From assembly GCA_963677545.2 (NCBI GenBank), contig CAXXKH010000048.1, positions 11,048 through 75,047 on the forward strand: a stretch of DNA of 64,000 bases, read 5' to 3'. Positions 27,270 to 55,550 of the stretch are shown one piece after another (position 1 is the stretch's first letter; every line of letters begins with the position of its first letter). This stretch comes from Desulfobacterales bacterium. GTDB taxonomy: Bacteria > Desulfobacterota > Desulfobacteria > Desulfobacterales > JAFDDL01. Both the position numbers and the translations under genes were made by a program. Under the pieces are notes generated by a model. That model did not search any database. It was not told where the DNA came from and saw only the letters and a list, made by a program, of their open reading frames with translations.

Positions 27270-27611
27270 CAAAGGTGACGCCGGATCGAACCACATCAGA
27301 GATTCGCTCAGATTGACCACCTCTCCGACAACAATGATGGCCGGTGGTTTGACGCCTACCATGCGGGCTTTTTAAACGATGTTCCCAGATTGCCGATCAC
27401 CACGACTTGTCTGTGGGTGGTTCCCTATCGGATAAGGGCAACGGGGGTTTCGGCCGGTTTCCAATGGCCGTCAGATTCCGTATGATTCGGGAAGCTTTTT
27501 CACCCCCATGAAAATGACCTGGGACGATTCAATGCATTTCAGCCCTTTGACGGTGATCAATCCCGGATTGCCGGGACCGGCCCCCACGAGATAGACTTTG
27601 CCACGGTTCAT
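27270..27611 (-). pseudogene. Uroporphyrinogen-III C-methyltransferase (CobA/CysG-A) remnant
   Basis: [23 protein letters not shown] joined to VIFMGV...TPVALIR*GTT...PPAIIVVGEVV; large internal deletion, stops and frameshifts. Confidence 0.8.
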
Positions 27612-30600: not shown

Positions 30601-31408
30601 ACATTACCGGGTTGAGCAGTACGTCAATGACCGGTTTGCCGTCTTCCATGAAAAACCGCTCCACCACATAGTCGGCGCCCCGGTTGCCCAGCAGAGTGTC
30701 TTTGAAACGCATGTGGAACACACAAATGACGTTGGCGCCCTGCCGTTCAACTTCCCGGACCATGGCGTCGATATGGTCCTTGTTATTGCTGGTCCAGAAA
30801 TTCTGGTAGAACCAGATCCCCACCGTGGGCTTGTCACGCGAAAGACGGCCGCGGTAAGCATCGGGATCTTCGATAAAACCGTGATCCGGGTGGTAGAGCC
30901 CTTCGTAGGGCGGTTTGACCGGCGGCTTCGGAAGTATTGGACCATCAAGAACACGGTGGTAAAAATATATGAGGAGATTTTTCAGGTTTTCCACGCCACC
31001 GTAGCGGTAGTAGCGGCTCAGGATCTGCCAGGTATCGTCCGCGAGGCCGTCGGAGTGCTGTTCCACGAACCGCATGGATTCCGGGTTGCTGCCGGTGGGC
31101 TGGATATGGAAATAGGGGCATGTTTCGTTCCGGTTGCGTTTTTCCGCAAGGGCCGCAATCAGTGCCTCCCACGCGGGGCAGGACTGGCTCCCGGCCATGA
31201 GGGTAACCACCAGCACATCCGCGGCAAGGGCGCAGGCCACGAACGCGGCCTGGCTTCCCGGGTTCTCTTCCAGCTGGGTGCGGGTTCGGGCATAAATCGT
31301 GAGGGGGGAGACGTCCTCCGTAAAGAGACGGGCCGCTTCGCTCAGATTCGGGATTTCGTTCGATGTAACGCTGAAATAGACAAGCTTCATTTTCATCTCT
31401 TCTCCCAT
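27608..31408 (-). CDS. cobN: CobN/magnesium-chelatase-H family large subunit
   Basis: [50 protein letters not shown]...HGYKGA. Confidence 0.93.
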
Positions 31409-31414
31409 GGCGCG

Positions 31415-32218
31415 CTACCGTTCCTCCGCGATCCGCTGATGAAGACTTTCAATGGGAATGAAATAGGGACAGTCATGGATGGCATCCGTCCTGACATCCA
31501 CGCGGATACGGAATATTCGCTCTAAAAGCACCGGGGTGATGATTGCCGACGGGGGGCCGGTCTCCACAATCCTTCCGTCGCTGAGAGCCGCGATGGTGTG
31601 GGCATACCGGGCGGCCTGGTTGAGGTCATGCAGCACCATCACCGTGGCGATGCCGAGACTGCGGTTCAGTTCCCGGACAAGTTCCAGCACCTCGAACTGG
31701 TAGCAGATATCCAGGAAGGTGGTGGGCTCGTCCAGGAGAAGGATCTCGGGCTTACGGGCCAGGGCCAGGGCCAGCCAGGCCCGTTGCCGTTCCCCGCCGG
31801 AGAGGGAGGACATCATGCGCTCCCGAAGGCCGGTGAGCCGGGTTCGGGAAAGGGCTTCGTCCACGATACCCCAGTCCCCTTTTCTCATGCGACCGTTCCA
31901 TTTCAGATGGGGATTCCGACCGTACCCCACCAGGTCCCGAACCGTAAAATCCGGCGGCGCCGATGGGCTCTGGGGCAGAAAAGCCACCCGCCTCGCCAGG
32001 GCCTTTGGGGCGTACCGATGGACCGGTTTTCCGTCCAGGAGAACCGAACCGCCCCGGGGGCGCAAGGCGCCGGCAAGCCCCTTTAATATCGTCGATTTGC
32101 CGGAGCCGTTGGGACCGATAAGCACCAGGATTTCCCCGGGGTTCAGGGAAAGGGTCACGTCGTGAACCACCGGCGACTGTTTACCGTATCCCAACTGAAG
32201 ATGATCTGCCTTTAGCAT
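31415..32218 (-). CDS. ABC transporter ATP-binding protein (BtuD/FepC type)
   Basis: GPNGSGKST, LSGGERQR, LLLDEPT, VLHDLNQA. Confidence 0.95.
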   Translation of the reverse strand: MLKADHLQLGYGKQSPVVHDVTLSLNPGEILVLIGPNGSGKSTILKGLAGALRPRGGSVLLDGKPVHRYAPKALARRVAFLPQSPSAPPDFTVRDLVGYGRNPHLKWNGRMRKGDWGIVDEALSRTRLTGLRERMMSSLSGGERQRAWLALALARKPEILLLDEPTTFLDICYQFEVLELVRELNRSLGIATVMVLHDLNQAARYAHTIAALSDGRIVETGPPSAIITPVLLERIFRIRVDVRTDAIHDCPYFIPIESLHQRIAEER

Positions 32219-32229
32219 GAGATAGACTC

Positions 32230-33228
32230 CTAATGCTGCATCGCTTTGCTTCGCAGCAGATACAGAAAGAACGGCGCACCCAGAAGCGCCATGATGATCC
32301 CCACCGGCACCTCCACCGGATCGAGAGCCACCCGGGATATCGTGTCGCAGACCATCACCAGGGCGGCGCCCGAGAGCGCACTGGCCGGAAGCAGGTACCG
32401 GTAGTCCGACCCGATGAGAAGCCGGGTGATATGGGGGACGATGAGACCCACAAATCCCAGGAGACCCGCCACACTCACTGCACTGCCGGCCAGCAGGGCG
32501 GAAAGGGCGACAAAAAATAGTCGGGTACGCTCCACGTGCAGTCCCAGCCCCTGGGCCATTTCATCCCCCAGCATGAGAATATTGAGCCTGCGGGCGGAAA
32601 GACTCGCTAGAAAGAAACCGAACACAGTGTATGGCGCGATGATGACGAGATGCTTCCATGTCCTGGCCGAAAGCCCCCCTACCATGTATCCGATTACCGA
32701 GTGGACCCGGTCCGGAAAGAAAATCATCAGCCCCGTGATCATGGCGCCGAGAAACGAGGAGACCGCCACCCCCGCCAGGATGAGACGATAAGGCCGGACT
32801 CCCTGTTGCCAGGCCAGCAGATAGACCAGCATGGTGGTGACCAGGGCGCCGCCGAAGGCCACCGGTGGCAGCAGGTAATATATGCCGGGGTACAGGATCA
32901 GAATAATGACACCCGCCAGACCGGCGCCGGCGGACACGCCGATGATGTTGGGGGCGGCCAGGGGATTTCGCATGATTCCCTGGAGCAGACACCCGGAAAG
33001 AGAGAGACAGACACCGACACAGCCCGCCACCAGGGTCCGGGGGAGCCGTATATTCACGACGATCTGGTAATCCGTCCCCCTTTCCGGCCCCAGAAGGGTG
33101 GCCAGAATCTCGGGAATGGAGAGCTTCAGCGACCCCAGGCCCAGGCTGAAGATAAATCCCAGGACACAGGTAAGGCCCAGCAGGAGCAGCACCAGAATGC
33201 GTTTTCTCCTTCGTCCTTCTGCGTTCAT
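32230..33228 (-). CDS. ABC transporter permease (BtuC/FecCD type)
   Basis: IRLPR, RNPLA.P..IGV..GA, GFVGLIVPH, PVGI...LGAPFF. Confidence 0.95.
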   Translation of the reverse strand: MNAEGRRRKRILVLLLLGLTCVLGFIFSLGLGSLKLSIPEILATLLGPERGTDYQIVVNIRLPRTLVAGCVGVCLSLSGCLLQGIMRNPLAAPNIIGVSAGAGLAGVIILILYPGIYYLLPPVAFGGALVTTMLVYLLAWQQGVRPYRLILAGVAVSSFLGAMITGLMIFFPDRVHSVIGYMVGGLSARTWKHLVIIAPYTVFGFFLASLSARRLNILMLGDEMAQGLGLHVERTRLFFVALSALLAGSAVSVAGLLGFVGLIVPHITRLLIGSDYRYLLPASALSGAALVMVCDTISRVALDPVEVPVGIIMALLGAPFFLYLLRSKAMQH

Positions 33229-33230
33229 TG

Positions 33231-34211
33231 CTATTTCCCCCTATATAAAAGCGCCGCCAGATACCGAAGGGCCTCAGGGAATTCGTCATTCGGCTTGTAG
33301 AGAAAATATTCCTTGGGAAGTACGTGGAACCGGCCGTTCCGAATCGCCTGGAGAGTGGACCAGGCAGCGTTGGTTTCGTACTCCTTTCGAAGCCGGTCCC
33401 GGCACTCCGCCACATCGCCCATGGTGTTGAGAAGGATGATGTCCGGATCGAGTTGAACGATTTTCTCAAGGCTGAAGTCCACCCGGGTTTTATCCCTCAG
33501 TCGGTACCGGTCCGCAATGACGTTTTCAGCCCCCAGCAGAGAGAGCATCACACCAGCCTGGGAGCCGGGCAGTTCGCAGGAAATCGAATTGGATGTGGTG
33601 AAAATCACCAGCACCCGGGGGGGCGTTCGTCCGGCACAACCCTGAATAATCCCGTTTACTTCCGTCGCCATATTTTCAAGATCGGTTTTTACCTGACCCT
33701 GAGTCCCGTTTATTCTGGCAAAAAGATCGAGGATGTGCCTGTAGTCGTGGTAATTCACATAATTGAAGTAAGCGTAGGCAATATCGTTCTGTTCCAGGAT
33801 TGGAATCATGGCCCGGAAATTTCCCACATCCGAGGAGATCACCAGGTCCGGCTCGAGGGCGATTATCTTTTCCACATTGGGATTGTTGAAAGAGCCCACC
33901 ACTTCGGCTTTCCGGGCCCGGGCGGGCACACGAAGGTCTCCCGCGCAACGGCCCACCACCTCCCCGCCCGTCTGGTCCCACAGGTCCAGAAGGGAAGTGA
34001 GCAGCACCACGGTGCGTTTCGGATGCTTTGGAAGTACCGAGAGACTCCCATCCGGCAGCCTGCAGCTAACAGTTGCGGAGGTTTCCGCCGCAATGAGGGA
34101 TTTCGGTACATTTCGAACGTCTACATTTTTCGAATCACCATTACATGCCCAAAGAGAGAGAAGCATGAAAAAGGTCAAAAAAGCAAAGCGAAACAATGCC
34201 GAACAAAACAT
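33231..34211 (-). CDS. ABC transporter substrate-binding lipoprotein
   Basis: Lipobox LWAC; PNVEKIIALEPDLVI, SLEKIVQLDPDII, AIRNGRF. Confidence 0.9.
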   Translation of the reverse strand: MFCSALFRFAFLTFFMLLSLWACNGDSKNVDVRNVPKSLIAAETSATVSCRLPDGSLSVLPKHPKRTVVLLTSLLDLWDQTGGEVVGRCAGDLRVPARARKAEVVGSFNNPNVEKIIALEPDLVISSDVGNFRAMIPILEQNDIAYAYFNYVNYHDYRHILDLFARINGTQGQVKTDLENMATEVNGIIQGCAGRTPPRVLVIFTTSNSISCELPGSQAGVMLSLLGAENVIADRYRLRDKTRVDFSLEKIVQLDPDIILLNTMGDVAECRDRLRKEYETNAAWSTLQAIRNGRFHVLPKEYFLYKPNDEFPEALRYLAALLYRGK

Positions 34212-39183: not shown

Positions 39184-41402
39184 TTACCAGTCGAGCTTTA
39201 GCTCAAGCAAAAAACTGCGTTCTCTTCCGATGGAATACTCGTAATACTCCTCATCGAATAGGTTCTCCACCGACAGAGAAACCCGTATTTTTTTAATATA
39301 CCGCGTCTCATAGGGAATATTGGCAATTGCTTTGGCTTCCCAGATCCAGACGGTTGAATCCGCTTTGTAGACATTCGGGATATCGGTGTTGTATTTGGTA
39401 TTATAAATACGGCCGGCATATCGCCCCGCCAGGTTGAACGACAACCAGTCGTAAACATAATTTGCACCGATATTGATGGTTTCATCCGGCATGCCGGTGA
39501 CGCTTTTACCCACCATTCCGGGGTCATGATCCTGTCTGGTAATTTCGGAATCATTGTATGTGTAATTGCCCCAGATTGTGAAAGAATCAAAAGGGATAAT
39601 GGATGCACTCAGCTCGACGCCCTGAATGCGAACCTCTCCGGCATTGTCTTTTCTGGAATCCCCGGCGTCATCATTGTAAGAGTAAATGAGATTCTCAATA
39701 TCGGAGTGAAACAACATGACCTCTGTTTTGACTTTTCTTCCGAGAAAGTATTTAACAACGCCAATTTCGTAATTGAGAATGGTTTCGGAATCCAGATCCG
39801 GGTTGGAGTAAACCATCCGGCTGCTGGACTCATAAGTACGGTAAAGATCGTAAATGGTTGGAGATCGGAAGGCCTTTCCCACGGAGCCTTTCAAAATGGT
39901 CTCCTTGCTCAGGGTCCACACCAGGGATAATTTCGGGCTGACAGCGGAGTTATCCACATCGTCGAGTATCGTCGGATTTTCCGTGCTGCCGCTTTTCCCG
40001 TCGTATGCTTCCCAGAAATCCGCCCGAATCCCGGCATAGATAGTGAATTTGTCCTTGATCGCCTCTATTTCATCCTGGACATACAGGGCATAATACTGGT
40101 CCTTACCCAGTGTTAACTCCATTTTTCCCGATATTTTGCTGTCTTCGTCCTGATAATAAGCCACATCGAACTGACCCTGGTCGAAATCATTATATCTACC
40201 GTAAACACCGGTGGTGATATGATGCCGGCCGCCGATATCGAAATTCAACTGCAGGTCGGTAAAAAAGGTATCCGTATCGAATTCCTTGACATTGCCGCCG
40301 GCATCATAATACCCCTCGCCCGTTGCCGCCGAAGCCGTGGTGTACCACATATCCTCATGCTGGTAGCCGAATTTTCCGAGAAAGGTGAGGGGGCCGAAGA
40401 TTTCCGTATATGTCGTCATGTAAGATGAATTTGTTATATCGCGGGGACTCGACAGATAGTACTTTTCGGCAATGGATACGTACTCCCCGTTCCCGACATC
40501 GACCCTTCCATCGAAAACCGGATTTCCGTCTGCATCCGTTATGTATGTATGGGGGGGGGCATATTCATAGAAAGTTGATTCCACCTGGCCTTCCAGTCGA
40601 ATGGACCCGGTTTCCGACAGTTCATATTTCGACGTAAAGCTTATCCCCCATTGATCTTCGTTTCGGTCTCCTGTATCACCGACGATCCAGGCGGCTTGAT
40701 CGGTCCGGGTCTTCATGAAAAAACCGCCCCTGAGATCACCGTCTCCGGATCTTATGGTTCTCTGGACATAACTTCTGGGATAACCGAATAACTCTTCATC
40801 CCTTTCAAACCAAGCCGAAAGCTGAATTTTTCTCCGACCCTGTTCCCGATATAGCCGCTGTAGGAGAGATTGTCGTCACTTCCGAGACGTGTCTTGAGCC
40901 CGGCCTCGAACTGATCGGGCATTTTCGTAATAACATTGATGGTTCCGCCCATGGCGTTACCGCCGTAAAGTGCCGAGGCAGGTCCCCGGACAATCTCAAT
41001 CCGCTCGACATTTTCGACGCCGACATTGTCCCATCTGTGACCGCCGTACCAGCCGCTGTTGAGCGGCATGCCGTTCAACATCAAGAGTGTGTGACTGGCG
41101 CTGGGAAGTCCCCTCAACTTTCCTTCAAAATACCCCGCCTCATACTGAAGAGCCTCGTCAAGCCTGTTGAACGTAAACGATTCCAGTTCTTCTTTTGTTA
41201 CCACCGATACGGCGGCGGGAGCGAGACCCATCTCCTTTTCGCTTCTTGTGGCCGTAACAATCAGTTCGTCCAGAAAAAAAGAATCCTTTATACTGCTCAA
41301 TTTTTTTGTTTCCGAAAATGTCTCCTGTGCGAAGCAGGTGAGCGGTGCTGCCAGCACACCTGCAACAATCAAAAAAAACAATCCTGCTAAAACCGTTTTC
41401 AT
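39184..41402 (-). pseudogene. TonB-dependent receptor split by one missing base at ~40808
   Basis: Plug ORF 40752-41402 and barrel ORF 39184-40716; adding one A to AAA 40807-40809 restores RLGFERDEELFGYPRSYV, collinear with paralog 42730-44916. Confidence 0.85.
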
Positions 41403-41553
41403 TTCGAGCCTCCATGCAATTCAAATACATGTGCGCCTCCTTACCAAAAAAACCCACGCCCGGAGGGGCGCAAGCATTCCGTTTTTAATCCTGTCAGTAC
41501 AATTGTTTATCAGCAAACGACCCTGTATCCCGAGGGGTTTACTTGAAAAATCA

Positions 41554-41722
41554 CAGGCAGGTCTTCTGACTCTCCCGCCTTTGCCGCCGCCTTCCCACCG
41601 CCTCCCGGGCGGCAGTGGCATATGTTGCAGCAAAGGTTCCCTGTATAAGGGCGGGATCACAGCGGCGGGTCCGCTCCCGATTCTCACGGGATTCCCTGTT
41701 GGGTCCTTCCGGACACCTGTGT
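41554..41722 (-). ncRNA. Cobalamin riboswitch 3
   Basis: - strand AGGGAATCCCGTGAGAATCGGGAGCGGACCCGCCGCTGT...GCCACTG...GGGAAGG...AGTCAGAAGACCTGCC; hairpin plus T-run near 41446-41470. Confidence 0.92.
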
Positions 41723-41874
41723 TTCAGTAAGAAAGACAGTTTATTCGAATTTCTCCGGCAACATCATTCCGGCCGCATTCGATTCATTAAATACTACTGG
41801 TGCTTTTTCCAGTTTTGAATATGTTGCCGACCACCTCCTTTCTACGACAAGCTCCGTTCCGGATCGTCTGAAAT

Positions 41875-41909
41875 AAAAAATCCCGGACCGAAGTAATTCG
41901 ATCCGGGAT
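41875..41909 (-). terminator. Attenuator terminator of riboswitch 4
   Basis: - strand ATCCCGGATCGAA..TTCGGTCCGGGAT-TTTTT. Confidence 0.82.
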
Positions 41910-41980
41910 GTCCCTTTTTTATCCGCAGATATTCGTCTGAAACACAACGCCGTCCGCGCAGTCGTGTCTCCTATATGTTT

Positions 41981-42132
41981 CAGGCAGGTCTTCTGACTTC
42001 CGGATCATCCTACCGGCTGCGCCTTCCCGACCTTTCGGCCAGTGACATCATGCAGCTTTCGTCCCCGATTACAGCGGCGGGCCCGTCCCCGATTCCCACG
42101 GAGTTCCCTATTAAGCTCTTTCGAGCGCCTTT
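41981..42132 (-). ncRNA. Cobalamin riboswitch 4
   Basis: - strand AGGGAACTCCGTGGGAATCGG...CCCGCCGCTGT...GGGAAGG...AGTCAGAAGACCTGCC; TTGACA-N16-TATAAT at 42179-42152 upstream. Confidence 0.93.
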
Positions 42133-42228
42133 AATACTAGTTGTTCCGACGATTATAAATGCCTTGGAGCGAATGTCAAGCGGAAAAATAAGAATAGTGA
42201 CACCGCCCGTATCGGGGCATAAAGTCGG

Positions 42229-46618: not shown

Positions 46619-46652
46619 AAAAATCCCGGACCGAAGTAATTCGATCCGGGAT
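46619..46652 (-). terminator. Attenuator terminator of riboswitch 6 (may also end the + strand methylase transcript)
   Basis: Same hairpin as at 41875-41909. Confidence 0.78.
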
Positions 46653-47782: not shown

Positions 47783-48967
47783 TTATTCTTCCGGAAGTTT
47801 CAAAAAGTATTTGAGCTGGTACCCGGGAAAAAGATCGGGATGAATGATGGCGGCCAGATCTTCAACAACCTCTTCCCGCTTATCAATGGATTCCCAGTAC
47901 CAGGGCTGGGTTATCCAGATCTTTTTTTCACGGACCGGCTTGGTGACCCGCAAAATCTCCGCTGCATCCATCAACTGCCGCATGGATGCAATACCACGTC
48001 CGGGAGCGACTTCGAGAATGTACAGATCGGCGTCCCTGGCACGCATGTAGAACTCTTCCAGGGTAATACTGCCGTATCCCACCATGTACTGCATCGCTTC
48101 CAGGCCGTTGAAGAGGTAGTCGCCGCCGGCGAGCGCAAACATTCGGGCCTGACAGGAATCCGGCCTCGGGACATGCACCTTCTTGAGGTATACCCCCCCG
48201 GACAATATCCTGGGTTTTTTCGTTGCCCGGGCCGTTGTTATCGATACGGCGTCGACTTTTCGGGCGGCCTTTTCGAAGAACCGGTTTGCTTCATCTTCCT
48301 TGTCATAGAAGGCCGCCAGGAATTTGACCCATTCCGTCTGTGCCAGGGGATGCTTCTCATCAAAAAAATCGACGATTGCCACCGGGATGTTCAATTTGTC
48401 CAGCATGGGGAGCAGTTTCTGGTTCCAGTCCCTGGCAAAAACGATCTCCGGATTCAAGGCCCTGAGCCGTTCGTAATCCATCGGGTTCCCGTTCCCCAAA
48501 TCAACGATATCACCCGCTTCTATCCGGCTTTGGATACCGTCGATATAGGATTCGCTATTGTCGATGCAGATACCCGAGATGGTATCCAGAAGCCCGAGGG
48601 GTCTTAGAAGAGCGGCGTTGATGGTGGAATTCAAGGCAACCCTGGTAACAGGAATTTCAATCCTGGGAAGATCTTCATAGCCGGGCAGGGGGGCCTTTCC
48701 CCTGGGGCACAGCAGCAATTCCCGTCCGGCGCCGTCGGTTACCACCTTGTATCCGTTATCCAGATAGGCGAGCTTAAAGTGTGCGGCATACCGGACGGAG
48801 GACAAGGCCCCCCCGTTATCTTCGGCGGACAGATCAAATGTCCCGGCTAAAAGGAAGACCATTATGCCTGCTGTTATTAGAACGGCTTTCCCGAAAACAG
48901 GCAGACAGTGAATAACCGTGAACGTACTTTTCTTCCTACGCTTCAAGTCCTCAGCTTTGAAACACAC
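47783..48967 (-). CDS. ABC transporter substrate-binding protein (BtuF-like), last gene of the nitrogenase-like operon
   Basis: VRYAAHF, PVTRV, EKHPLAQTEWVKF, DLAAIIHP; paralog of 17521-18654; start overlaps upstream stop. Confidence 0.88.
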   Translation of the reverse strand: MCFKAEDLKRRKKSTFTVIHCLPVFGKAVLITAGIMVFLLAGTFDLSAEDNGGALSSVRYAAHFKLAYLDNGYKVVTDGAGRELLLCPRGKAPLPGYEDLPRIEIPVTRVALNSTINAALLRPLGLLDTISGICIDNSESYIDGIQSRIEAGDIVDLGNGNPMDYERLRALNPEIVFARDWNQKLLPMLDKLNIPVAIVDFFDEKHPLAQTEWVKFLAAFYDKEDEANRFFEKAARKVDAVSITTARATKKPRILSGGVYLKKVHVPRPDSCQARMFALAGGDYLFNGLEAMQYMVGYGSITLEEFYMRARDADLYILEVAPGRGIASMRQLMDAAEILRVTKPVREKKIWITQPWYWESIDKREEVVEDLAAIIHPDLFPGYQLKYFLKLPEE

Positions 48968-50333
48968 CGCTCTCTCCTTCCCCGAACGAATAGGGGTACT
49001 GGCTGGTCAGCCTGCAGTTGAGGATCGCCTCTATGAAGGTCAACCCTCCCGCAAACCCCAGATACGGCCGGTGTACCAGATTGGTCCTGTTGAATTCCGG
49101 CATGCTGGTTTGAATGAAAAATTGGGGGGATAAATCCACCTGATTCAGTAGATATTCCTCAAAGGCGGAACCGAAGGTAATTACCGGCCGTTGTTTATGT
49201 AGGGCCGACAGGGTCTGATCCATACCGGGATTCAGGAGAATTTGGACCCCTTCATCCCTGCACGGAAGCAACCCGGTCTCTCCGGGAGTCAAGGTTTCCC
49301 GGCCGGAAATTCCCAAAATGACCGGACGACAGCCCAGGTAGTCATGGAGGAACGACCCCAGTCCGGCGACAAACGCCCACTCGCCGAAAATGGCCACCGG
49401 CAGGCCCCTTATCTTCTCGGTTCTTGATGAGTGGGTCAGTGCCAGGAAGCCCTCCCTGCGGCAATGTTCCTCTTCCCGTTTCAATGCATCGGAGCGGGGT
49501 ATTCCCATATCCCCGCACACATCGTCCAGGAGACCGCGGGTAGCATCAAAACCAATGGGCATCCGCTTTGCTGTGACATAGGGCTGATTGAACCGCTTCT
49601 TCATGAATTCGGCAATCTCGATGCCGTACTCCGGATTGATCACCACATTAAGGCCCGCCGAAACAAGATTGCGGATCTCCTCCAGGTTGGCGCCGGCCGC
49701 CAGAACCGTGTTGACCTTCAGTCCTGCCATTCCCATCAGACGCCGAATCTCCCTGGCATCGTGCTTCCAGCTATATTGGGTGATAGGCAGGCCCAGAATA
49801 TTGACGGTATTTCGGGCGGGCGCGGCCTTCGGATCGGTCTCCTTCTCGATGAGCTTGATAATGGCTTCCGAGTATCCTTTCGAAATGCTTCTGGCGCACC
49901 CGGTGGACTCCAGGTAGAGTATCCGGGAGGAGAGGTCGTGATCCATGAGAATGTTGTCGGCATCCTCGCCGATGAGGCTCAGGCTGCACGAATTGATAAC
50001 GGCAATGCACCGGCCCCGGCCCTTTTGAACCAGCAGTTCCACAGCCTGTACCAGCTTGTCGCTGATGCCTAGAATGACATCGGTATCCGTTATCTCCGTA
50101 CAGGGGATCCGGGGGTGGCCATCCACCGCCAGGCGATTGAAACGGTTCGCATTCCGCTCGCAAATCGGATGGCAGCCCTCTACCATTCCGGCGGCAAACC
50201 CCGTACAGGAACTCGGTCCGTTCACCAGGATATCGACACCGTCGATGCCGGAAAGGGCAGAGAGAGCGCCGCCCAGGGAACAGGGCAGGCCGTGGTTCAA
50301 TCCCTGATCGTCAACAGTTATTGCTTGATTCAT
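48951..50333 (-). CDS. Nitrogenase component-1-like oxidoreductase subunit 2
   Basis: PCSLGGA, NGPSSC, NSC...IGED (Cys ~18/43/116); VNILG, PIGF..T, RPYLGFAG. Confidence 0.88.
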   Translation of the reverse strand: MNQAITVDDQGLNHGLPCSLGGALSALSGIDGVDILVNGPSSCTGFAAGMVEGCHPICERNANRFNRLAVDGHPRIPCTEITDTDVILGISDKLVQAVELLVQKGRGRCIAVINSCSLSLIGEDADNILMDHDLSSRILYLESTGCARSISKGYSEAIIKLIEKETDPKAAPARNTVNILGLPITQYSWKHDAREIRRLMGMAGLKVNTVLAAGANLEEIRNLVSAGLNVVINPEYGIEIAEFMKKRFNQPYVTAKRMPIGFDATRGLLDDVCGDMGIPRSDALKREEEHCRREGFLALTHSSRTEKIRGLPVAIFGEWAFVAGLGSFLHDYLGCRPVILGISGRETLTPGETGLLPCRDEGVQILLNPGMDQTLSALHKQRPVITFGSAFEEYLLNQVDLSPQFFIQTSMPEFNRTNLVHRPYLGFAGGLTFIEAILNCRLTSQYPYSFGEGESGVFQS

Positions 50334-51630
50334 TTCGCCATCCTTCCACACCGGTGAATTGCAGCCATCGGGACCACTCCACAAACAGGTTCAGCAATCC
50401 CCGGGGTCCCACCGGCGGGAACAGCGGCACCTCCCGGACCAGCAGCCCCGGCTGGTGGTTCGGAATCGGGGCGTGGTGAGAGGAGCACTGCAGATACACA
50501 TCCGCTTTTTTTTGAAGATTGTTTGCCAGCACCGCTTCGAGATCCATGCCGGAATTCACCGGACAGGAGAGGCCGCCGGGGGCGTCCAGAAAATCCGCTT
50601 CGAAATAACCGGTGCTGAGGATGTTCATCTCCAGAATGTCGGCTTGAAGCAAATCCAGGAATTCCACCAGCCAGCCCAGGTGGAGGGGGGCGGTGTTCAC
50701 AATTATCTTGAGCCCCTTAAAAGGGTTTCCACGTCGCGACATTTCCTGAAGAAAAAAATCTTTTTCCGCCGCCATCAGCTCTTCGATATCCACATCCAGT
50801 TTCAAGGCGTCCCTGATGGCGGAAAGCCAGGTGCGGGTATCTTCAAATCCGCCGGGAAATCCTTCCTGAATATAGGGTGTCTGGAACTTCTGGCATAATC
50901 GTTCGCACACCGAAAGGGACTGGTTGGTGGATGCCGGCAGGTTCAATGCCGCCCGGGGCACATCGGGCAGCGCCTTAAAATCCAGGTTCCGGACGAATCG
51001 GGTGTTTATATCAAGCCCCAGCAGTGCCAGAAGACGCCTGACCTCCATGAAATCGATATCCGCGGTGGGTATAAGACTTCGCTCGGCCACCAGGTTCACC
51101 CGGCGGGGGTCGATGTCGGACGCAGGTTTCAAAAAACGGTCGATCAAATCGAAATAGGCGCTGTTGATCCCTTCGAAGTGATCTCCCTTCAGGAATCCGC
51201 CCATGGAGAAATAGACCACCTCCCGGCCGGTCCGGTCGGACATCTCCTCGCACACCCCCGAAACGTCATCTCCGATCACTTCCACCGTGCAGCTTGGAAT
51301 CACCAGGAGGGGAAAATCCGGAAATGCCGCGAGGGTCTCCTCGATTTTCTGCCGCAGCAGATCTTCTCCGCCGAAGATCAGCTCATTTTCCGACAGGGCC
51401 GTGGTGCGAAAATTCATTCGCGGCGGGCTGAAGTCGTGGATTATCTCCCCTTCCCGAAGAAGCATCTGCTGGCAGAACTTCAGGCCGTAATGGGCACATC
51501 CCGGGGTACCGTGAAGCAGCACAGCTGTATTGCGAAGATTCAGCAGCACACTCAACGCCCCCACAAGCGTACAGGAGAGCTGGCTGCCCTTGACCCGGGG
51601 AATACTGTATTTGTGTTTATTCTCAGACAT
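50311..51630 (-). CDS. Nitrogenase component-1-like oxidoreductase subunit 1
   Basis: SCTLVGA, HGTPGC, LSE.ELIFGGE..L, PSC.VEVIGDD (Cys ~20/45/114). Confidence 0.9.
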   Translation of the reverse strand: MSENKHKYSIPRVKGSQLSCTLVGALSVLLNLRNTAVLLHGTPGCAHYGLKFCQQMLLREGEIIHDFSPPRMNFRTTALSENELIFGGEDLLRQKIEETLAAFPDFPLLVIPSCTVEVIGDDVSGVCEEMSDRTGREVVYFSMGGFLKGDHFEGINSAYFDLIDRFLKPASDIDPRRVNLVAERSLIPTADIDFMEVRRLLALLGLDINTRFVRNLDFKALPDVPRAALNLPASTNQSLSVCERLCQKFQTPYIQEGFPGGFEDTRTWLSAIRDALKLDVDIEELMAAEKDFFLQEMSRRGNPFKGLKIIVNTAPLHLGWLVEFLDLLQADILEMNILSTGYFEADFLDAPGGLSCPVNSGMDLEAVLANNLQKKADVYLQCSSHHAPIPNHQPGLLVREVPLFPPVGPRGLLNLFVEWSRWLQFTGVEGWRNESSNNC

Positions 51631-52438
51631 GGCGCCTCATCAGTGCATCGAGACCATCCTGGTCAAACGGTGTGGGACAGACCAGCTTCGGCTGCTGGGC
51701 GACCCGTTTCGACAGCGCTTCGAACATGCCCGCCACCTCATGCCCGGCGTCATATTCCATCACGGTCTGTCGGTTGATCTCCGCCTTGTGAAAAAGTTCA
51801 TCCCTGGGGAAAAAGGCCACCATCTCGGACCCGACCGACCGGGCGAACTCGTCGATCAGCTCTCTCTCCCACGGCTTATTGAAACGGGCATTGCCGATAA
51901 TGCCTGCCAGACGCCCCTTGTCGGCGGATGAAAACCGGGCAACGCATTTGCAGATATTGTTGGCGGCGTACAGGGCCATGAACTCGCCGGAAGTGACAAC
52001 GTAGATCTCCTCGGCGTAGTTCTTCCGTATGGGAACCGCAAACCCGCCGCAGACCACATCCCCCAGAACATCGTAAAGAATGATATCGATGTCGGGAGTA
52101 ATCACCGACAGTTTTTCCAGAACCTCGAACATGGAGATGATGCCGCGGCCGGCACATCCGATGCCCGGTTCGGGCCCCCCGGCCTCGATGGTCAGGACGC
52201 CGCCATATCCCGTTTTCAGAATTTCCTCTTTGGTAACACCGGCCGGTCCGTTGGCCCGGAGCGTATCGAGAACAGTGGGCTGGAGCAGACCATTGTGAAG
52301 CATCTGGGTAGAGTCATGTTTGGGGTCGCAGCCGATCTGCAGAATTTTATTCCCCGAGTTCGAGAGGCAGACCGACAGATTGGTCGTGATGGTCGATTTG
52401 CCGATACCGCCTTTGCCGTAGATTGCAATTTGTTTCAT
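51623..52438 (-). CDS. NifH/CfbC-like Fe protein (nitrogenase-like reductase)
   Basis: YGKGGIGKST, GCDPKHDST, GGPEPGIGCAGRG, DVLGDVVCGGFA, MALYAANNI. Confidence 0.95.
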   Translation of the reverse strand: MKQIAIYGKGGIGKSTITTNLSVCLSNSGNKILQIGCDPKHDSTQMLHNGLLQPTVLDTLRANGPAGVTKEEILKTGYGGVLTIEAGGPEPGIGCAGRGIISMFEVLEKLSVITPDIDIILYDVLGDVVCGGFAVPIRKNYAEEIYVVTSGEFMALYAANNICKCVARFSSADKGRLAGIIGNARFNKPWERELIDEFARSVGSEMVAFFPRDELFHKAEINRQTVMEYDAGHEVAGMFEALSKRVAQQPKLVCPTPFDQDGLDALMRRHV

Positions 52439-52476
52439 CCGTAATTCTCCAGGTTTAATTCGGACTGCCGGAAAAC

Positions 52477-52510
52477 AAAAATCCCGGACCGAAGTAATTC
52501 GATCCGGGAA
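52477..52510 (-). terminator. Attenuator terminator of riboswitch 7
   Basis: Same hairpin as riboswitches 4 and 6, about 40 nt before the nifH-like start. Confidence 0.8.
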
Positions 52511-52579
52511 ATCCCTTTTTTATCCACAGATATTCGTCTGAAAAACGGCGCCGTCCGCGCAGCCGTGATTCCATATGCC

Positions 52580-52731
52580 CAGGCAGGTCTTCTGACTTTC
52601 GGATCGTCCTACCGGCTGCGCCTTCCCGGCCTTTCGGCCAGTGGCATCATGCAGCTTTCGTCCCCGATTACAGCGGCGGGCCCGCCCCCGATTCCCACGG
52701 GGTTCCCTGTTAAGCTCGTTAGAGCACCTTT
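52580..52731 (-). ncRNA. Cobalamin riboswitch 7, leader of the nitrogenase-like operon
   Basis: Near-identical to riboswitches 4-6; TTGACA on the - strand at 52777-52772. Confidence 0.93.
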
Positions 52732-52850
52732 GCAAATGTATTCGCCTGTTCATATAAAGTGCTGAAAAATATGTCAAGCCGAAAGAGACAGTGGAACAGG
52801 GTAACCGCATTTGGATTTTTATAAGGCGCTATGGCTGTTTCAAGAGAATG

Positions 52851-52885
52851 AACGTCGAACATCGAACATCCAACGTCCAATTTTG
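52851..52885. repeat. Degenerate 7-bp tandem repeat
   Basis: AACGTCG AACATCG AACATCC AACGTCC AATTTTG. Confidence 0.75.
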
Positions 52886-53418: not shown

Positions 53419-53525
53419 TTCTGCTCCACACATAATCGCATTCATACATCGTTCATACGCAACGCCTTTGTAGAGGTGCGTGTATGGATTGTCCCCGAAC
53501 AGAATCACTTGAAGGAGTTCGTGCT

Positions 53526-55550
53526 ATGAAAAGAATATTTGTGTTTATTACAGCCGTGCTGTATTGCGCGTCGTTTGTTTGTGCCGAGGAAGTCTTCACG
53601 CTTCCGGACTTAGTGGTGACGGCAACCGGAAGCGAGAAAGAGTTGTTTGATACATCTCTGCCCATGAATCTGTTGGAAAACAGCGATCTGGAGGAGAAAA
53701 TTGCGGTCTCAGTGGCTGAGATCTTTCAGGAAGAGCCCGGTGTGGATGTGGTGACTACGGGACCGGGGAGTGTACACCCCATGATCCGTGGGCTCTACGG
53801 TGAGCGGGTGCTCGTGCTTATCAATGGCGTACGCCTGTCCGAACAGCGCCCCGGAGGCAATCATGTGTTGTCACTCGATCCCGCGCGGATTGAGCGCGTC
53901 GAAGTGGTTCGCGGCCCGGCATCGGTGCTCTATGGTTCCGATGCAATCGGAGGCGTGATTAACTTCATCACGAAGCGTGCCGGCGAGGAAACCTCACCCG
54001 AAGCCCGTTTCGGCGGCGAAGCAGATATTCGGTATAGTAGCGCAACGGACGGTTTAAAGGAGTCGGCGCACCTGCGTTTCGGTCGGGGCCGCTTCAACGG
54101 CTATGCCGGGGGAACCTACAGGGACACAGGCAACGTCGAAACCCCGGAAGGCGAGCTTTCGAACAGCTTTTACGACGGCTACACAGTCTGGGGCGGCGGC
54201 AATTATATCGCCGACCGATGGAAGGCATACGCCGATTATTCGCTTATAGAAGCGGACATCGGCATCCCCGGCCCCGCCGCCTTTGCCGAGGACTATTTCA
54301 AAGGCGAGAAGCATCAGCGGCTTTCACTTGGGTTTGAAGCCGACGGGTTCGACAGTGCCGCCGAACGCTTCAACATCGATTTTGGTTGGCAGCGGCATAA
54401 CAGGCATCGTTACCGCCGCAAAACGGACGCCATACCGCCTGTCATTCAGGGCGACCTCGAAGTCAATATCCGGGTCGACATCGACACCTATACGCTTAAG
54501 CCGCAAATGGTTCTTGTTCCCAACGACACGCACCGGGTGGCGATCGGCCTGGACACGTTCTACGAAAACGCGACGTCCGACCGCACACTCCGGGACAGCG
54601 CTTCGTCCTGGGTGAATCCGGGTTTCGATGGTGTTCCCGTTATTCCGGATTCGACGCGTTTTGGCGTAGGTGCGTTTGTGCAGGACGAGATAACCCTGGG
54701 CGACCGCTGGATTGTTACGCCGGGACTCCGTGGGGACTGGATTGAAGCACAAACCGACGGGCATCCCCGCCATCAGCTGACAGGTAAGGAGACATCCGAA
54801 AGCAGCGCGATAAGCGGGAATCTCGGCCTGCTTTTTAGGGTAAGTAACGAAATCAATCTTTACGGCAATGTGGGGCGAGCGTTCCGTTCACCAACCCTGC
54901 TGGAGCTGTATTTCTATGGGCCGCACGACGTCGGAAACGACATCGGCGATCCGGACCTCGATCCCGAAAAAAGCTGGAACTTCGATATCGGGCTGAAAAT
55001 CCGGACCGATCGACTTCAGACAATGATCAGCGTTTTCTACAACACGGTCGACGACTACATCATCAAGGAGAACCAGGGAGACGGCAACTACTACTATATG
55101 AACTACGCTGAAGTATCCCTGTATGGCGCCGAAGCGGGCCTGGATTACGATTTTGGCAGCGGCTTCTCGGCGTTCGCCTCCGTTTCGTATGTGCGTGGAG
55201 AGAATGACGATTCGGGGGAAGATCTTACGGGCATTCCGCCGTTGAAAGGCCGATACGGGGTGCGCTACGATGCGATACTGGGTGCAAAAAATCGACTCTG
55301 GGTGGAACTCGCCGGGATGACCGCCACGGACCAGGATGAGACCGGTCCCAACGAGCGCGAGACCGATGGCTACACACGCGGCGACGTTCGTGTGGGAGTC
55401 GATATCGGCGAGACATGGCGCTTCGTGGCGGCCGTTGAAAACGTCTCCGATGAACTATACCAGGATCACCTCTCGTCAGCATGGCAGTCGTTCGGATTGA
55501 ACGATCAATCCGGCCGAAATGTGAAGGTGATGGTTAAGGCGAGATTCTGA
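53526..55550 (+). CDS. TonB-dependent receptor (metal/heme-type, not riboswitch-linked)
   Basis: RBS AAGGAG, signal peptide, LVVTAT, IERVEVVRGPASVLYGSDAIGGVINFIT, FRSP, Y.DHLS, C-terminal F. Confidence 0.93.
   Translation: MKRIFVFITAVLYCASFVCAEEVFTLPDLVVTATGSEKELFDTSLPMNLLENSDLEEKIAVSVAEIFQEEPGVDVVTTGPGSVHPMIRGLYGERVLVLINGVRLSEQRPGGNHVLSLDPARIERVEVVRGPASVLYGSDAIGGVINFITKRAGEETSPEARFGGEADIRYSSATDGLKESAHLRFGRGRFNGYAGGTYRDTGNVETPEGELSNSFYDGYTVWGGGNYIADRWKAYADYSLIEADIGIPGPAAFAEDYFKGEKHQRLSLGFEADGFDSAAERFNIDFGWQRHNRHRYRRKTDAIPPVIQGDLEVNIRVDIDTYTLKPQMVLVPNDTHRVAIGLDTFYENATSDRTLRDSASSWVNPGFDGVPVIPDSTRFGVGAFVQDEITLGDRWIVTPGLRGDWIEAQTDGHPRHQLTGKETSESSAISGNLGLLFRVSNEINLYGNVGRAFRSPTLLELYFYGPHDVGNDIGDPDLDPEKSWNFDIGLKIRTDRLQTMISVFYNTVDDYIIKENQGDGNYYYMNYAEVSLYGAEAGLDYDFGSGFSAFASVSYVRGENDDSGEDLTGIPPLKGRYGVRYDAILGAKNRLWVELAGMTATDQDETGPNERETDGYTRGDVRVGVDIGETWRFVAAVENVSDELYQDHLSSAWQSFGLNDQSGRNVKVMVKARF

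What the first reader, a model, noticed from the sequence alone, without database searches (positions are those of the whole stretch)
47783..52780. Cobalamin-riboswitch-controlled nitrogenase-like reductase operon (NifH + two D/K-type subunits + corrinoid-type binding protein)
Seen: a complete cobalamin riboswitch and terminator lead into four genes with overlapping start/stop regions: nifH-like, two different component-1-like subunits and a BtuF-like binding protein. Each subunit keeps three Cys at NifD/NifK P-cluster spacing (~20/45/114 and ~18/43/116). No nifEN, nifB or recognisable FeMo-co ligand motif is present. Known: characterised nitrogenase-like enzymes are DPOR, COR, homodimeric CfbD and methylthio-alkane reductase; I know none under B12 control. 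Inference: a heterotetrameric reductase made during corrinoid starvation that reduces or remodels an imported tetrapyrrole or corrinoid (salvage, ring reduction or metal release), or replaces a B12-dependent reaction.
Basis: partly seen in the sequence, partly recalled or inferred. Interest (0 to 1): 0.92.

Follow-up and report, generated by a model that had tools for sequence, protein, structure and literature searches.

The report
B12-riboswitch-controlled nitrogenase-like reductase operon
A vitamin-B12-sensing RNA switch controls a rare, uncharacterised nitrogenase-like enzyme whose genes always sit among import and metal-insertion genes for B12/heme-type molecules, which points to a new job for this enzyme family.

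Summary
On the minus strand a full-length cobalamin riboswitch (122 bits) and a 12-bp terminator lead into four overlapping genes: a NifH-like gene, two different component-1 genes (D-like, K-like) and an exported Peripla_BP_2 binding protein. D and K each keep three Cys at the NifD/NifK P-cluster columns.

The D subunit belongs to a rare clade. It has 15 full-length relatives at 60-73% identity and occurs in 2 of 401 genomes of the order. It scores far below every NCBIfam Nif/Bch/Cfb cut-off and shares 16-20% identity with NifD, NifE and MarD structures.

In 6 of 7 orthologous loci a CobN-type chelatase lies within about 20 kb, and every locus with held flank carries TonB receptor genes or fragments. 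A cobalamin riboswitch heads the array in only 2 of the 4 loci with enough upstream DNA.

Best reading (0.5): an ATP-driven reductase that works on an imported metallated tetrapyrrole, probably a corrinoid, and is repressed by B12 in this genome. The substrate is unknown. My searches found nothing in print on B12 control of such an enzyme.

The parts
52815..52843 (-). promoter-like site (TTGAAA-17-AAAAAT) about 70 nt upstream of the aptamer
   Evidence: This is a consensus match only: 4 sites were found in the region against 4.0 expected from shuffles, so it is weak evidence.
52565..52746 (-). cobalamin riboswitch aptamer
   Evidence: RF00174, 122 bits against a gathering score of 31.5, full model 1-189. 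It is 79-89% identical over aptamer plus platform to three other leaders in the window.
52472..52509 (-). intrinsic terminator of the expression platform (12-bp stem, loop of 4, T-run)
   Evidence: The same hairpin sequence follows the riboswitches at 46909, 45324 and 42147.
51623..52438 (-). NifH-like ATP-dependent Fe protein (271 aa)
   Evidence: PF00142 E 3.3e-102. CfbC model 349.9 bits against a cut-off of 402, and nifH 346.9 against 394.35, so below both; best PDB match 6nzj_A, E 1.8e-92.
50311..51630 (-). D-like component-1 subunit (439 aa); C20/C45/C114 at the P-cluster columns
48951..50333 (-). K-like component-1 subunit (460 aa from ATG 50333; the listed ORF starts at TTG 50384); C18/C43/C116
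47783..48967 (-). exported Peripla_BP_2 solute-binding protein (394 aa from GTG 48967; gene callers start at Met36, 48862)
   Evidence: The hydrophobic N-terminal segment spans residues 17-48.
27608..31408 (-). cytoplasmic CobN-type chelatase (1266 aa); associated with the operon by synteny in other genomes, not part of it
   Evidence: PF02514, 1334 bits; no signal or membrane segment at either end. CobN lies next to H-D-K in L009, L010, L022, L023 and G268.
31415..34211 (-). Peripla_BP_2, FecCD permease and ABC ATPase genes of the neighbouring riboswitch-led operon (associated importer)
   Evidence: The same importer genes flank H-D-K in L010 and L023 and in 10 of 10 clostridial loci.
41539..42147 (-). 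two tandem cobalamin riboswitches heading the TonB receptor ... CobN operon
   Evidence: 108.1 and 90.6 bits.

Best explanation
The four genes encode a nitrogenase-like (NFL) two-component reductase plus a periplasmic binding protein. The reductase consists of a NifH-type ATPase/electron donor and a D-K catalytic core with a six-cysteine inter-subunit cluster site.

How I think it works: a metallated tetrapyrrole, most likely a corrinoid or corrinoid-like compound, enters through TonB-dependent receptors and a BP/FecCD/ABC importer. In the cytoplasm the H-D-K enzyme uses ATP-driven low-potential electrons to reduce it, either at the ring or at the metal. This feeds or follows a cytoplasmic CobN-type (de)chelatase. 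In this genome the operon is transcribed only when cobalamin is scarce, because ligand binding to the leader favours the terminator.

Shown here: the riboswitch, terminator and gene anatomy; the cluster-ligand cysteines; that the clade is distinct; the conserved neighbourhood.

Inferred: OFF-switch behaviour (from how terminator-type cobalamin riboswitches usually work), D2K2 assembly, cytoplasmic action on the imported ligand, and the nature of the substrate.
For: (1) Direct cis control. The aptamer, a terminator 44 nt before the ATG, and a Shine-Dalgarno sequence are all in place. The leader is a 79-89% copy of the leaders in front of TonB receptor genes in the same island.

(2) Conserved neighbourhood.
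- CobN is held near H-D-K in 6 of 7 loci (window 16 kb away; L009, L010, L022, L023, G268). The seventh, L021, is a 7-kb contig.
- TonB receptor genes or fragments are in the window, L009, L010, L021, L023 and G268.
- A Peripla_BP_2 gene follows K in the window, L009, L010 and G268, and precedes H in L010 and L023.
- FecCD plus an ABC ATPase are in L010 and L023.
- CbiZ, a corrinoid-salvage amidohydrolase, is next to the operon in L009.

(3) In the Desulfobacter MAG a cobalamin riboswitch (83.5 bits) lies 129 nt before a TonB receptor gene. That gene opens an 11-gene same-strand array (largest gap 115 nt) that ends in H-D-K-BP.

(4) Distant relatives at 25-29% D identity in 10 of 10 clostridial loci have FecCD and ABC between H and D-K. 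The coupling of this part of the NFL tree to chelate importers is therefore old.

(5) The enzyme looks functional. H has the NifH signature. D and K keep 3+3 cluster cysteines. All frames are intact. The same gene string, including the riboswitch-H junction, is bridged by contigs of other runs.

(6) The D-K co-fold gave weak support: median ipSAE 0.49 against a best control of 0.17. The mark was reached by 58 of 80 solved complexes and 2 of 110 mismatched pairs. But at 0.60 or under, only 7 of those 80 reached it, and so did both mismatches. The runs agree in at least 63% of contacts and the partner's pLDDT is at least 78. NifDK-like complexes are solved, so the pass may reflect likeness to them.

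(7) CobN-like proteins in TonB-receptor loci are documented in metalloporphyrin salvage. HmuS removes iron from heme in an NADH-dependent manner (PMC12583661, passages). The BtuS family was proposed for metalloporphyrin salvage (PMC6460266, passages citing Rodionov 2003).
Against: - The riboswitch is absent from 2 of the 4 orthologous loci with at least 10 kb of upstream DNA: none within about 180 kb in D. variabilis and none within 20 kb either side in G268.
- The binding protein's nearest folds are unnamed iron SBPs, the heme binders RhuT/BhuT and the siderophore binder CeuE, not BtuF. Its best PDB sequence E-value is only 0.0069.
- The divergent neighbour at 53484..55550 scores highest on the TonB heme/hemoglobin receptor model, 279.7 bits against a cut-off of 316.85.
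- The known tetrapyrrole-reducing NFL enzymes (DPOR, COR, CfbCD) use a [4Fe-4S] cluster with fewer Cys. A full six-Cys P-cluster set is typical of Group IV enzymes that act on small molecules (Chem Rev 2026, PMC13474568, passages).
- There is no expression or biochemical evidence.
- The genome has CbiD, so it is probably not a pure B12 auxotroph.
Confidence: 0.5

Rival explanations
1. Iron (or other metal) acquisition. H-D-K reductively releases the metal from imported heme or a siderophore-type chelate. The CobN-like protein acts as the dechelatase, as HmuS does. The B12 riboswitch would be a lineage-specific add-on, gained by leader duplication.
For: - The binding protein's fold is nearest to heme and siderophore binders.
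- The adjacent TonB receptor scores best on the hemin-receptor model.
- D. variabilis and G268 lack the riboswitch.
- The leader is a recent paralog of other leaders in the island.
- HmuS dechelation needs a reductant (PMC12583661).
- The clostridial relatives sit in FecCD/ABC loci with no riboswitch.
Against: - B12 riboswitches are not known to govern iron uptake (established knowledge).
- Two independent loci put the genes under a cobalamin riboswitch.
- CbiZ is adjacent in L009.
- The CobN proteins here lack the signal and membrane anchors of periplasmic HmuS (against PMC12583661).
Confidence: 0.2
2. A B12-independent bypass. H-D-K is a small-molecule reductase, for example Mar-like C-S cleavage yielding methanethiol for methionine. 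It is switched on when B12-dependent enzymes fail.
For: - D-K has the full six-Cys P-cluster set.
- K's best PDB sequence match is the Mar chain 9d9u_C, E 1.2e-19.
- Position 235 is Cys in 6 of 16 relatives.
- The invariant H385 aligns with the NifD His ligand column.
- A nifB exists in the genome.
- Riboswitch control of B12-independent isozymes is a known pattern (established knowledge).
Against: - The Cys at the cofactor column is not conserved; it is Thr/Ser in the window protein.
- There is no nifB/marB gene, and I annotated no sulfur-metabolism gene, next to H-D-K in any of the 7 loci.
- The genes are embedded in chelate importer and CobN genes.
- Structural-alignment identity to MarD is 18-19%.
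Confidence: 0.12
3. De novo biosynthesis. H-D-K performs a CfbCD/DPOR-like ring reduction in making a modified tetrapyrrole or corrinoid cofactor.
For: - H scores highest on the CfbC model.
- A tetrapyrrole methylase gene lies 1.2 kb away.
- The genome has the anaerobic cobalamin gene cbiD.
- Group VI NFL enzymes were proposed for such roles (bioRxiv 10.1101/765248, passages).
Against: - No biosynthetic genes are co-operonic in any locus; the conserved partners are uptake genes.
- The operon is present in only 2 of 401 genomes of the order, so it is not a core pathway step.
- The CfbD model scores 32.6 bits against a cut-off of 268.4.
Confidence: 0.1
4. An alternative nitrogenase (Nfa-like N2 fixation).
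For: - D-K has six P-cluster Cys.
- H is NifH-like, best PDB E 1.8e-92.
Against: - nifD scores 63.6 bits against a cut-off of 653.55.
- The cofactor Cys is not conserved.
- There is no nifB or nifEN in the locus.
- The genome already has nifHDKENB.
- The operon is under B12 control, not nitrogen control.
Confidence: 0.02

Closest known systems
CfbCD, Ni-sirohydrochlorin a,c-diamide reductive cyclase (NFL Group IV-B)
   Same: It has a NifH-type ATPase and a component-1 fold, and it acts on a metallated tetrapyrrole. The H protein here scores highest on the CfbC model, 349.9 bits.
   Different: - Both scores are below the cut-offs: CfbC 402, and CfbD 32.6 against 268.4.
- CfbD works as a homomer with one [4Fe-4S] cluster (PMC13474568). 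Here there are two different subunits with 3+3 Cys.
- The gene context here is uptake, not F430 synthesis.
Methylthio-alkane reductase MarHDK (Group IV-C; PDB 9fmg, 9d9u)
   Same: It has the H + D + K architecture and a P-cluster cysteine set. K's best PDB sequence match is 9d9u_C, E 1.2e-19. Foldseek TM-score to the D model is 0.66-0.68.
   Different: - Identity in the structural alignment is 18-19%.
- The Cys that holds Mar's catalytic cluster is not conserved here.
- There is no marB and I annotated no sulfur-metabolism genes; the neighbours are importer and CobN genes.
NifDK / NifEN
   Same: Same fold. D's best PDB sequence match is a NifEN fusion, 9i0g_A, E 7.6e-20. The six cluster cysteines align.
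   Different: - nifE scores 84.4 bits against a cut-off of 505.1, and nifD 63.6 against 653.55.
- In the tree, the genome's own NifD and NifE lie outside the 75-row clade that holds this family.
- The genome has a separate true nif cluster.
DPOR / COR (BchLNB, BchXYZ; Group V)
   Same: ATP-dependent NFL enzymes that reduce a tetrapyrrole ring. BchB is K's second-best PDB match, E 5.8e-19.
   Different: All Bch models score far below their cut-offs, for example BchB 111.5 against 490.35. DPOR's cluster has 3 Cys plus 1 Asp (PMC13474568), against 3+3 Cys here.
HmuS/BtuS CobN-like metalloporphyrin salvage loci of Bacteroidota
   Same: A TonB-dependent receptor and a CobN-family protein work together in reductant-dependent handling of an imported metallotetrapyrrole (PMC12583661 and PMC6460266, passages).
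   Different: HmuS is membrane-anchored in the periplasm and uses NADH. The CobN proteins here show no signal or membrane segment. No NFL enzyme is part of the Hmu systems as described in the passages I read.
Uncharacterised clostridial NFL loci (H-BP-FecCD-ABC-D-K; Butyricicoccus, Anaerofilum, Neobittarella and others)
   Same: The NFL genes are interleaved with a FecCD-type importer in 10 of 10 loci.
   Different: D identity is 25-29%. There is no cobalamin riboswitch, and no CobN or TonB receptor gave a tblastn hit.

Membership tests
Nitrogenase-like (NFL) superfamily | NifH-type Fe protein (P-loop and two cluster Cys) | tested here: met
   PF00142 E 3.3e-102 over residues 2-268. The alignment to 6nzj_A keeps GKGGIGKST, CAGRG and VCGGFA.
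Nitrogenase-like (NFL) superfamily | Two component-1 (Oxidored_nitro) subunits with cluster cysteines at the inter-subunit site | tested here: met
   PF00148 E 4.5e-56 and 4.9e-54. D C20/45/114 and K C18/43/116 align with the genome's own NifD/NifK cysteines.
True nitrogenase (Nif/Vnf/Anf) | Reaches the NifD/NifK family score | tested here: not met
   nifD 63.6 bits against a cut-off of 653.55; nifK 22.4-32 against 427.3.
True nitrogenase (Nif/Vnf/Anf) | Conserved Cys and His ligands of the catalytic cofactor (Av Cys275/His442, numbering from PMC13474568) | tested here: inconclusive
   The Cys column holds S234 or T235, and position 235 is Cys in 6 of 16 relatives, so this ligand is not conserved. 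H385 is invariant and aligns with the His column, but in a gappy loop with pLDDT under 50.
True nitrogenase (Nif/Vnf/Anf) | nifE, nifN and nifB alongside | tested here: not met
   None is in the window. The only nifB and nifEN are on contig C2 with the canonical nif cluster.
CfbCD | Reaches the CfbC and CfbD family scores; a single homomeric D gene | tested here: not met
   CfbC 349.9 against 402; CfbD 32.6 against 268.4. Two different D/K genes are present.
DPOR / COR | Reaches the BchN/B/Y/Z and BchL/X family scores | tested here: not met
   BchB 111.5 against 490.35; BchN 38.9 against 419.95; BchZ 56 against 529; BchL 229.1 against 345.15.
Methylthio-alkane reductase (Mar) | Close sequence likeness to MarD/MarK; conserved Cys/His for the catalytic cluster; marB | tested here: not met
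   D against 9d9u_A, E 6e-12. K against 9d9u_C, E 1.2e-19. Structural-alignment identity 18-19%. The Cys is not conserved. No radical-SAM NifB-like gene is in the operon.
IsrHDK (IV-F), NfaHDK (IV-A), Group VI Nfl | Placement inside these clades in a tree with named references | not tested
   No named reference sequences for these groups could be fetched with the tools. None of the 101 nearest representatives reached any Nif/Bch/Cfb D-type or K-type NCBIfam model at E 1e-70, though 22 carry a NifH/CfbC-type domain as H-D fusions. NCBIfam matched no model named for Isr, Nfa or Group VI.
Cobalamin riboswitch (RF00174) | Full aptamer above the gathering score, with an expression platform before a gene | tested here: met
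   122 bits against 31.5, model 1-189. The terminator is at 52509..52482.
BtuF (B12-specific binding protein) | Specific likeness to BtuF rather than to the Peripla_BP_2 class as a whole | tested here: not met
   Only the class model hits (PF01497, 54.5 bits). The one NCBIfam hit is a ferrichrome binder, 20.9 bits against 374. The best PDB sequence match is 5ggx_A, E 0.0069. The Foldseek hits listed through rank 50 show no entry described as BtuF.

The most novel reading that the evidence does not exclude
This would be the first nitrogenase-like enzyme used for nutrient salvage rather than biosynthesis or small-molecule reduction. A P-cluster-type H-D-K reductase would reductively labilise or remodel an imported foreign metallotetrapyrrole: an unusable corrinoid, or possibly F430-, siroheme- or heme-type compounds from sediment neighbours. 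A cytoplasmic CobN-type enzyme could then strip or swap the metal, giving the cell cobalt or a corrin scaffold when B12 is scarce. The control was acquired by copying a btuB-type riboswitch leader in front of the operon.
Probability: 0.25. Interest if true: 0.9.

Novelty: new variant of a known kind. Interest (0 to 1): 0.76.

Why it matters
A 2026 review of nitrogenase-like enzymes calls uncovering the function of the many uncharacterised systems one of the field's greatest challenges. It also says gene context has been of little help (PMC13474568, passages).

Here the context is unusually informative. A ligand-defined RNA switch (B12) and a conserved set of neighbours (TonB receptor, chelate ABC importer, CobN) narrow the candidate substrates to imported metallated tetrapyrroles. 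One carrier, Desulfosarcina variabilis str. Montpellier, has a complete genome on record.

If the reading holds, it adds a new reaction class to the family and a new ATP-driven step to corrinoid or metal salvage in anaerobic sediments. It would also show how a riboswitch leader cassette can be copied to recruit an operon into the B12 regulon.

Tried and rejected
- Close-relative scan of genome contigs with the single D protein found nothing. The allowed second scan, with alignment A1, found 12 loci.
- Rfam scans found no riboswitch in L009, L010, L021-L023, L002, L011-L020, L029, L031 or L032. L024-L027 were not scanned with Rfam.
- Expression: no RNA holder was listed for the stretch. The four runs I laid are contigs, so they say nothing about transcription.
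- A rough count on the 35 substitutions listed within the four genes gave 16 synonymous and 19 non-synonymous. The table omitted 21 further differences and the runs are closely related, so I draw no conclusion about selection.
- The ESM Atlas look-up returned only generic Oxidored_nitro clusters.
- A tree with named Mar, Isr, Nfa, Group VI, Cfb and Bch references could not be built, because no named reference sequences were obtainable.
  - I used NCBIfam cut-offs, PDB comparisons and a FastTree of 114 rows instead.
  - Of the 100 representatives P0023-P0122, 4 shorter than 300 aa were dropped.
  - 22 fusion proteins were cut to their last 450 residues.
  - 9 of the 15 family relatives were used.
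  - FastTree support only; long-branch warnings were printed.
- Distances between C53, C127, C242, C382 and H385 and the cluster site could not be measured, because structure prediction returns no coordinates.
- Rodionov et al. 2003 (PMID 12869542) is not held. Its BtuS proposal is cited only as quoted in PMC6460266.
- Supplementary files of papers were not consulted. Those of the Chem Rev 2026 review and of North et al. 2020 may list this clade under Group IV-D or IV-E.
- I considered that the H-D-K genes might be decaying and rejected it for the window: all four frames are intact. The G268 copy, however, does carry an IS element in D and a split CobN.

Full report
**1. What is at the coordinates**

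All features lie on the minus strand.
- Rfam's cobalamin model matches 52746..52565 over its whole length: 122 bits against a gathering score of 31.5, E 4.1e-30.
- Fifty-six bases further on, a hairpin of 12 pairs (7 G-C, loop of 4) at 52509..52482 is followed by TTTTTGTTTT.
- GGAG lies 8 nt before the ATG at 52438.
- Four ORFs follow with overlapping ends. H is 52438..51623, D is 51630..50311, K is 50384 or 50333..48951, and the binding protein (BP) is 48967..47783.
- Pfam gives Fer4_NifH (E 3.3e-102), Oxidored_nitro twice (E 4.5e-56 and 4.9e-54) and Peripla_BP_2 (E 1.4e-14).
- K most likely starts at ATG 50333. That start sits behind a GGAG-containing stretch, and the orthologs align from it.
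- The BP has a basic N-terminus and a hydrophobic segment (residues 17-48) before '...DLSAED'. I read it as exported. This is an inference from sequence; no signal-peptide predictor was available.

**2. Cluster ligands**

- In a MAFFT alignment with the genome's own NifD, K, E and N, D C20/C45/C114 share columns with NifD C76/C102/C169. K C18/C43/C116 share columns with NifK C24/C49/C107. I recall these columns as the P-cluster ligand positions.
- The D cysteines are invariant in 16 of 16 family sequences. The K cysteines are invariant in 7 of 7.
- Only C20, C45 and C114 stay invariant when 15 relatives at 20-30% identity are added.
- The clade also has cysteines of its own: C53, C127 and C242 in D, and C78, C146 and C335 in K.
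- The column of the NifD cofactor cysteine holds S234 (MAFFT) or T235 (HMMER against 9p1x_A). Position 235 is Cys in 6 of 16 relatives and S, T, R, N or H in the rest.
- The invariant H385 aligns with the NifD histidine column. The region is gappy, and residues 385-387 of the AlphaFold model have pLDDT under 50. I treat this as open.

**3. Family placement**

- No D or K family model of NCBIfam comes near its cut-off. The scores are nifE 84.4 against 505.1, nifD 63.6 against 653.55, BchB 111.5 against 490.35 and CfbD 32.6 against 268.4.
- H is NifH/CfbC-like but just below both cut-offs. Its best PDB match has E 1.8e-92.
- The best PDB sequence matches are weak. D matches a NifEN fusion at 7.6e-20. 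K matches chain C of the R. rubrum methylthio-alkane reductase at 1.2e-19 and BchB at 5.8e-19 (entry titles).
- The D model (pLDDT 84.5, pTM 0.84) superposes about equally on NifD, NifE and MarD: TM-score 0.65-0.69 at 16-20% identity.
- The word-indexed search of 5.8 billion proteins gave 22 hits at E 1e-5 or better among 8000 scored candidates. Fifteen are full-length relatives at 60-73% identity, and there is the window's own cluster.
- The exhaustive search of 1.84 billion representatives gave 1138 hits at E 0.001 or better, but only 12 at 1e-30 or better. One full-length representative exceeds 50% identity (P0016, 60%). The next best are at 32% or less.
- None of the 101 nearest representatives reaches a Nif, Bch or Cfb D/K-type model at E 1e-70. 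Twenty-two carry a NifH/CfbC domain, so they are H-D fusions. The ten nearest, scanned singly, are also all below cut-off.
- A FastTree of 114 rows puts the family (11 rows) in one clade with support 100 on a stem of 1.23 changes per site. That clade sits inside a 75-row clade (support 99) of unnamed NFL proteins. The genome's own NifD and NifE lie outside it. The method is quick and long-branch warnings were printed.
- Isr, Nfa and Group VI could not be tested.

**4. Rarity**

- Of 41 genomes sampled among relatives, none but the window's own has an ortholog. The other hits, at 31% identity or less, are nif genes or fusions.
- In a sample of the order, 2 of 401 genomes have a match at E 1e-60 or better: the window's genome and G268.
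- Named carriers are a Desulfobacter sp. MAG and Desulfosarcina variabilis str. Montpellier (record titles).

**5. Neighbourhoods**

Seven orthologous loci were read: the window, L009 (with L028), L010, L021, L022, L023, and G268 (L031 and L032).

| Locus | Gene order around H-D-K |
|---|---|
| L010, D. variabilis | CobN - TonB receptor - BP - H - D - K - BP - BP - FecCD ... BP - ABC ATPase - TonB receptor |
| L023 | CobN - TonB receptor - BP-length ORF (343 aa, not scanned) - H - D - K - FecCD - ABC - TonB receptor |
| L022 | D - K - CobN |
| L009, Desulfobacter | TonB receptor - ORF - Fer4_5 - HGD-D - BcrAD - two ABC genes - H - D - K - BP; opposite strand: CbiZ, TonB receptor, CobN |
| G268 | TonB plug fragment - H - D (cut by a DDE transposase ORF) - K - double BP - CobN (two ORFs) - TonB receptor |

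- In the window, the next operon downstream is led by two tandem riboswitches. It carries a TonB receptor, DUF4198, Fer4_5, HGD-D, BcrAD, BP, FecCD, ABC, CobN, a further TonB receptor and DUF2284.
- CobN is therefore held near H-D-K in 6 of 7 loci. The seventh, L021, is a 7-kb contig.
- The CobN proteins show no hydrophobic segment at either end. This differs from HmuS, which is described as anchored by terminal helices (PMC12583661).
- Ten clostridial loci with D at 25-29% identity all have FecCD and ABC between H and D-K. Six of the ten also gave a BP hit.

**6. The riboswitch link**

- It is direct in the window.
- In the Desulfobacter MAG, a cobalamin riboswitch (83.5 bits) lies 129 nt before the TonB receptor gene. 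That gene opens the 11-gene same-strand array, whose largest gap is 115 nt. The riboswitch is about 10.2 kb upstream of H.
- In D. variabilis, none of 32 genome-wide matches lies within about 180 kb of the locus.
- In G268 there is none within 20 kb either side.
- The three metagenome contigs hold none, but they are short. The clostridial loci hold none.
- Within the window, four leaders share 79-89% identity over 263-285 aligned columns, covering both aptamer and terminator hairpin. They are the operon's own leader, those at 46909 and 45324, and the first of the tandem pair at 42147. They are paralogous cassettes.
- The simplest reading is that this lineage placed the operon under B12 control by copying a leader that already served TonB receptor genes.
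- The genome holds 18 cobalamin riboswitches (9 on this contig), 6-7 CobN paralogs, a CbiD gene and one canonical nifHDKENB cluster.

**7. The binding protein**

- Its family is wider than the reductase's: 49 hits, including Bacillota at 39-45% identity.
- The model is confident (pLDDT 90.9).
- Its nearest solved folds are unnamed iron SBPs (4hn9, 4n01), the heme binders RhuT and BhuT, and the siderophore binder CeuE. The listed hits through rank 50 include no entry described as BtuF.
- The ligand class is therefore open among heme, siderophore and corrinoid.

**8. Assembly**

Co-folding D with K gave a median ipSAE of 0.49 against a best control of 0.17, which the tool rates as weak support.
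- The mark was reached by 58 of 80 solved complexes and 2 of 110 mismatched pairs.
- At 0.60 or under, only 7 of those 80 reached it, and so did both mismatches.
- The runs agree in at least 63% of contacts, and the partner's pLDDT is at least 78.
- NifDK-type complexes are solved, so the pass may reflect likeness to them.

**9. Presence in other data**

- Twenty public runs from 7 studies hold the stretch or part of it.
- In one run a single contig covers 47700-52506 with 29 differences. In another, a contig bridges 51310-52676, that is the H start and most of the aptamer.

**10. Literature**

No paper held both 'nitrogenase-like' and 'cobalamin riboswitch'. The other combinations returned nothing relevant:
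- 'nitrogenase-like' with B12 and riboswitch (I read passages of one of the two hits);
- with CobN (listing only);
- with corrinoid (passages of three hits);
- with TonB-dependent (listing only);
- with transport terms (listing only);
- riboswitch terms with nitrogenase or nifH (listing only).

The 2026 Chem Rev review (PMC13474568, passages) lists the assigned functions as Nfa, Cfb, Mar, Isr and DPOR/COR. It calls Group VI 'proposed tetrapyrrole'. The words corrinoid, TonB and riboswitch do not occur in it. The Group VI preprint (10.1101/765248, passages) describes a different context, rich in radical SAM genes.

**11. Reading**

The anatomy and the conserved neighbours point to a cytoplasmic ATP-driven reductase that acts on what the adjacent importer brings in, together with a CobN-type (de)chelatase.
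- B12 control in two lineages and CbiZ in one favour a corrinoid.
- The fold of the binding protein, a hemin-type receptor next door and the riboswitch-free loci keep heme or iron salvage alive as a rival.
- The six-Cys site keeps a small-molecule role possible.
- The substrate cannot be settled by computation.

Noticed in passing
window 46623-46909 (-) and 45710-46582 (+): A complete cobalamin riboswitch (111.8 bits) with its terminator (46652..46623) has no sense gene downstream. It points into the 3' end of a convergent tetrapyrrole methylase gene (PF00590, E 1.4e-44). It may be a riboswitch-controlled antisense RNA or a stranded leader copy.
   Followed up: partly
window 52430-52860, 46570-47000, 44910-45400, 41800-42220 (-): Four riboswitch leaders share 79-89% identity over aptamer plus terminator hairpin, so they are paralogous cassettes spread within one island. 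The fifth, at 41735, is only 50-56% alike.
   Followed up: yes
window 34214-37281 (-); L009 2155-5240: A second ATP-driven redox module sits in the riboswitch-led uptake operon: a membrane Fer4_5 polyferredoxin, an HGD-D protein and a BcrAD/BadFG-type ATPase. In the Desulfobacter MAG the same module lies in the array with the nitrogenase-like genes. Its function is unknown.
   Followed up: partly
window 39184-41402 (-): The TonB receptor behind the tandem riboswitches is split into a Plug ORF (40752..41402) and a barrel ORF (39184..40716). The barrel frame stays open upstream of its ATG, which suggests a frameshift, either real or an assembly error.
   Followed up: partly
L031 17503-19898 and L032 5519-8885 (G268): In the only other carrier among 400 sampled genomes of the order, the D gene is interrupted by a 1.9-kb insert that encodes a DDE transposase, and CobN is in two ORFs. 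That copy looks decayed.
   Followed up: yes
L011-L020: Ten clostridial loci (Butyricicoccus, Anaerofilum, Neobittarella and others) share the order NifH-like - (BP) - FecCD - ABC ATPase - D-like - K-like, with no riboswitch. I found no description of this arrangement in the literature searched.
   Followed up: partly
P0030-P0170 (about 22 of the 101 nearest representatives); L002 in G011: Many of the nearest relatives are single proteins of 690-770 aa that fuse a NifH/CfbC-type domain to a D-like domain.
   Followed up: partly
window 10493-10621 and 14281-14419 (+): Two weak cobalamin riboswitch matches (38.7 and 36.9 bits) precede two gene groups. One is an ORF with no family hit plus a B12-binding radical SAM gene. 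The other is a TonB receptor, a radical SAM gene and a BP.
   Followed up: no
window 48807: Contigs of two runs (X8, X14) carry a one-base insertion behind 48807, in the 5' part of the binding-protein gene. The N-terminal region or start of that gene may therefore differ between strains.
   Followed up: no
genome G000, contigs C6, C37, C48: The genome holds 6-7 CobN-family genes and 18 cobalamin riboswitches, an unusually large set.
   Followed up: no
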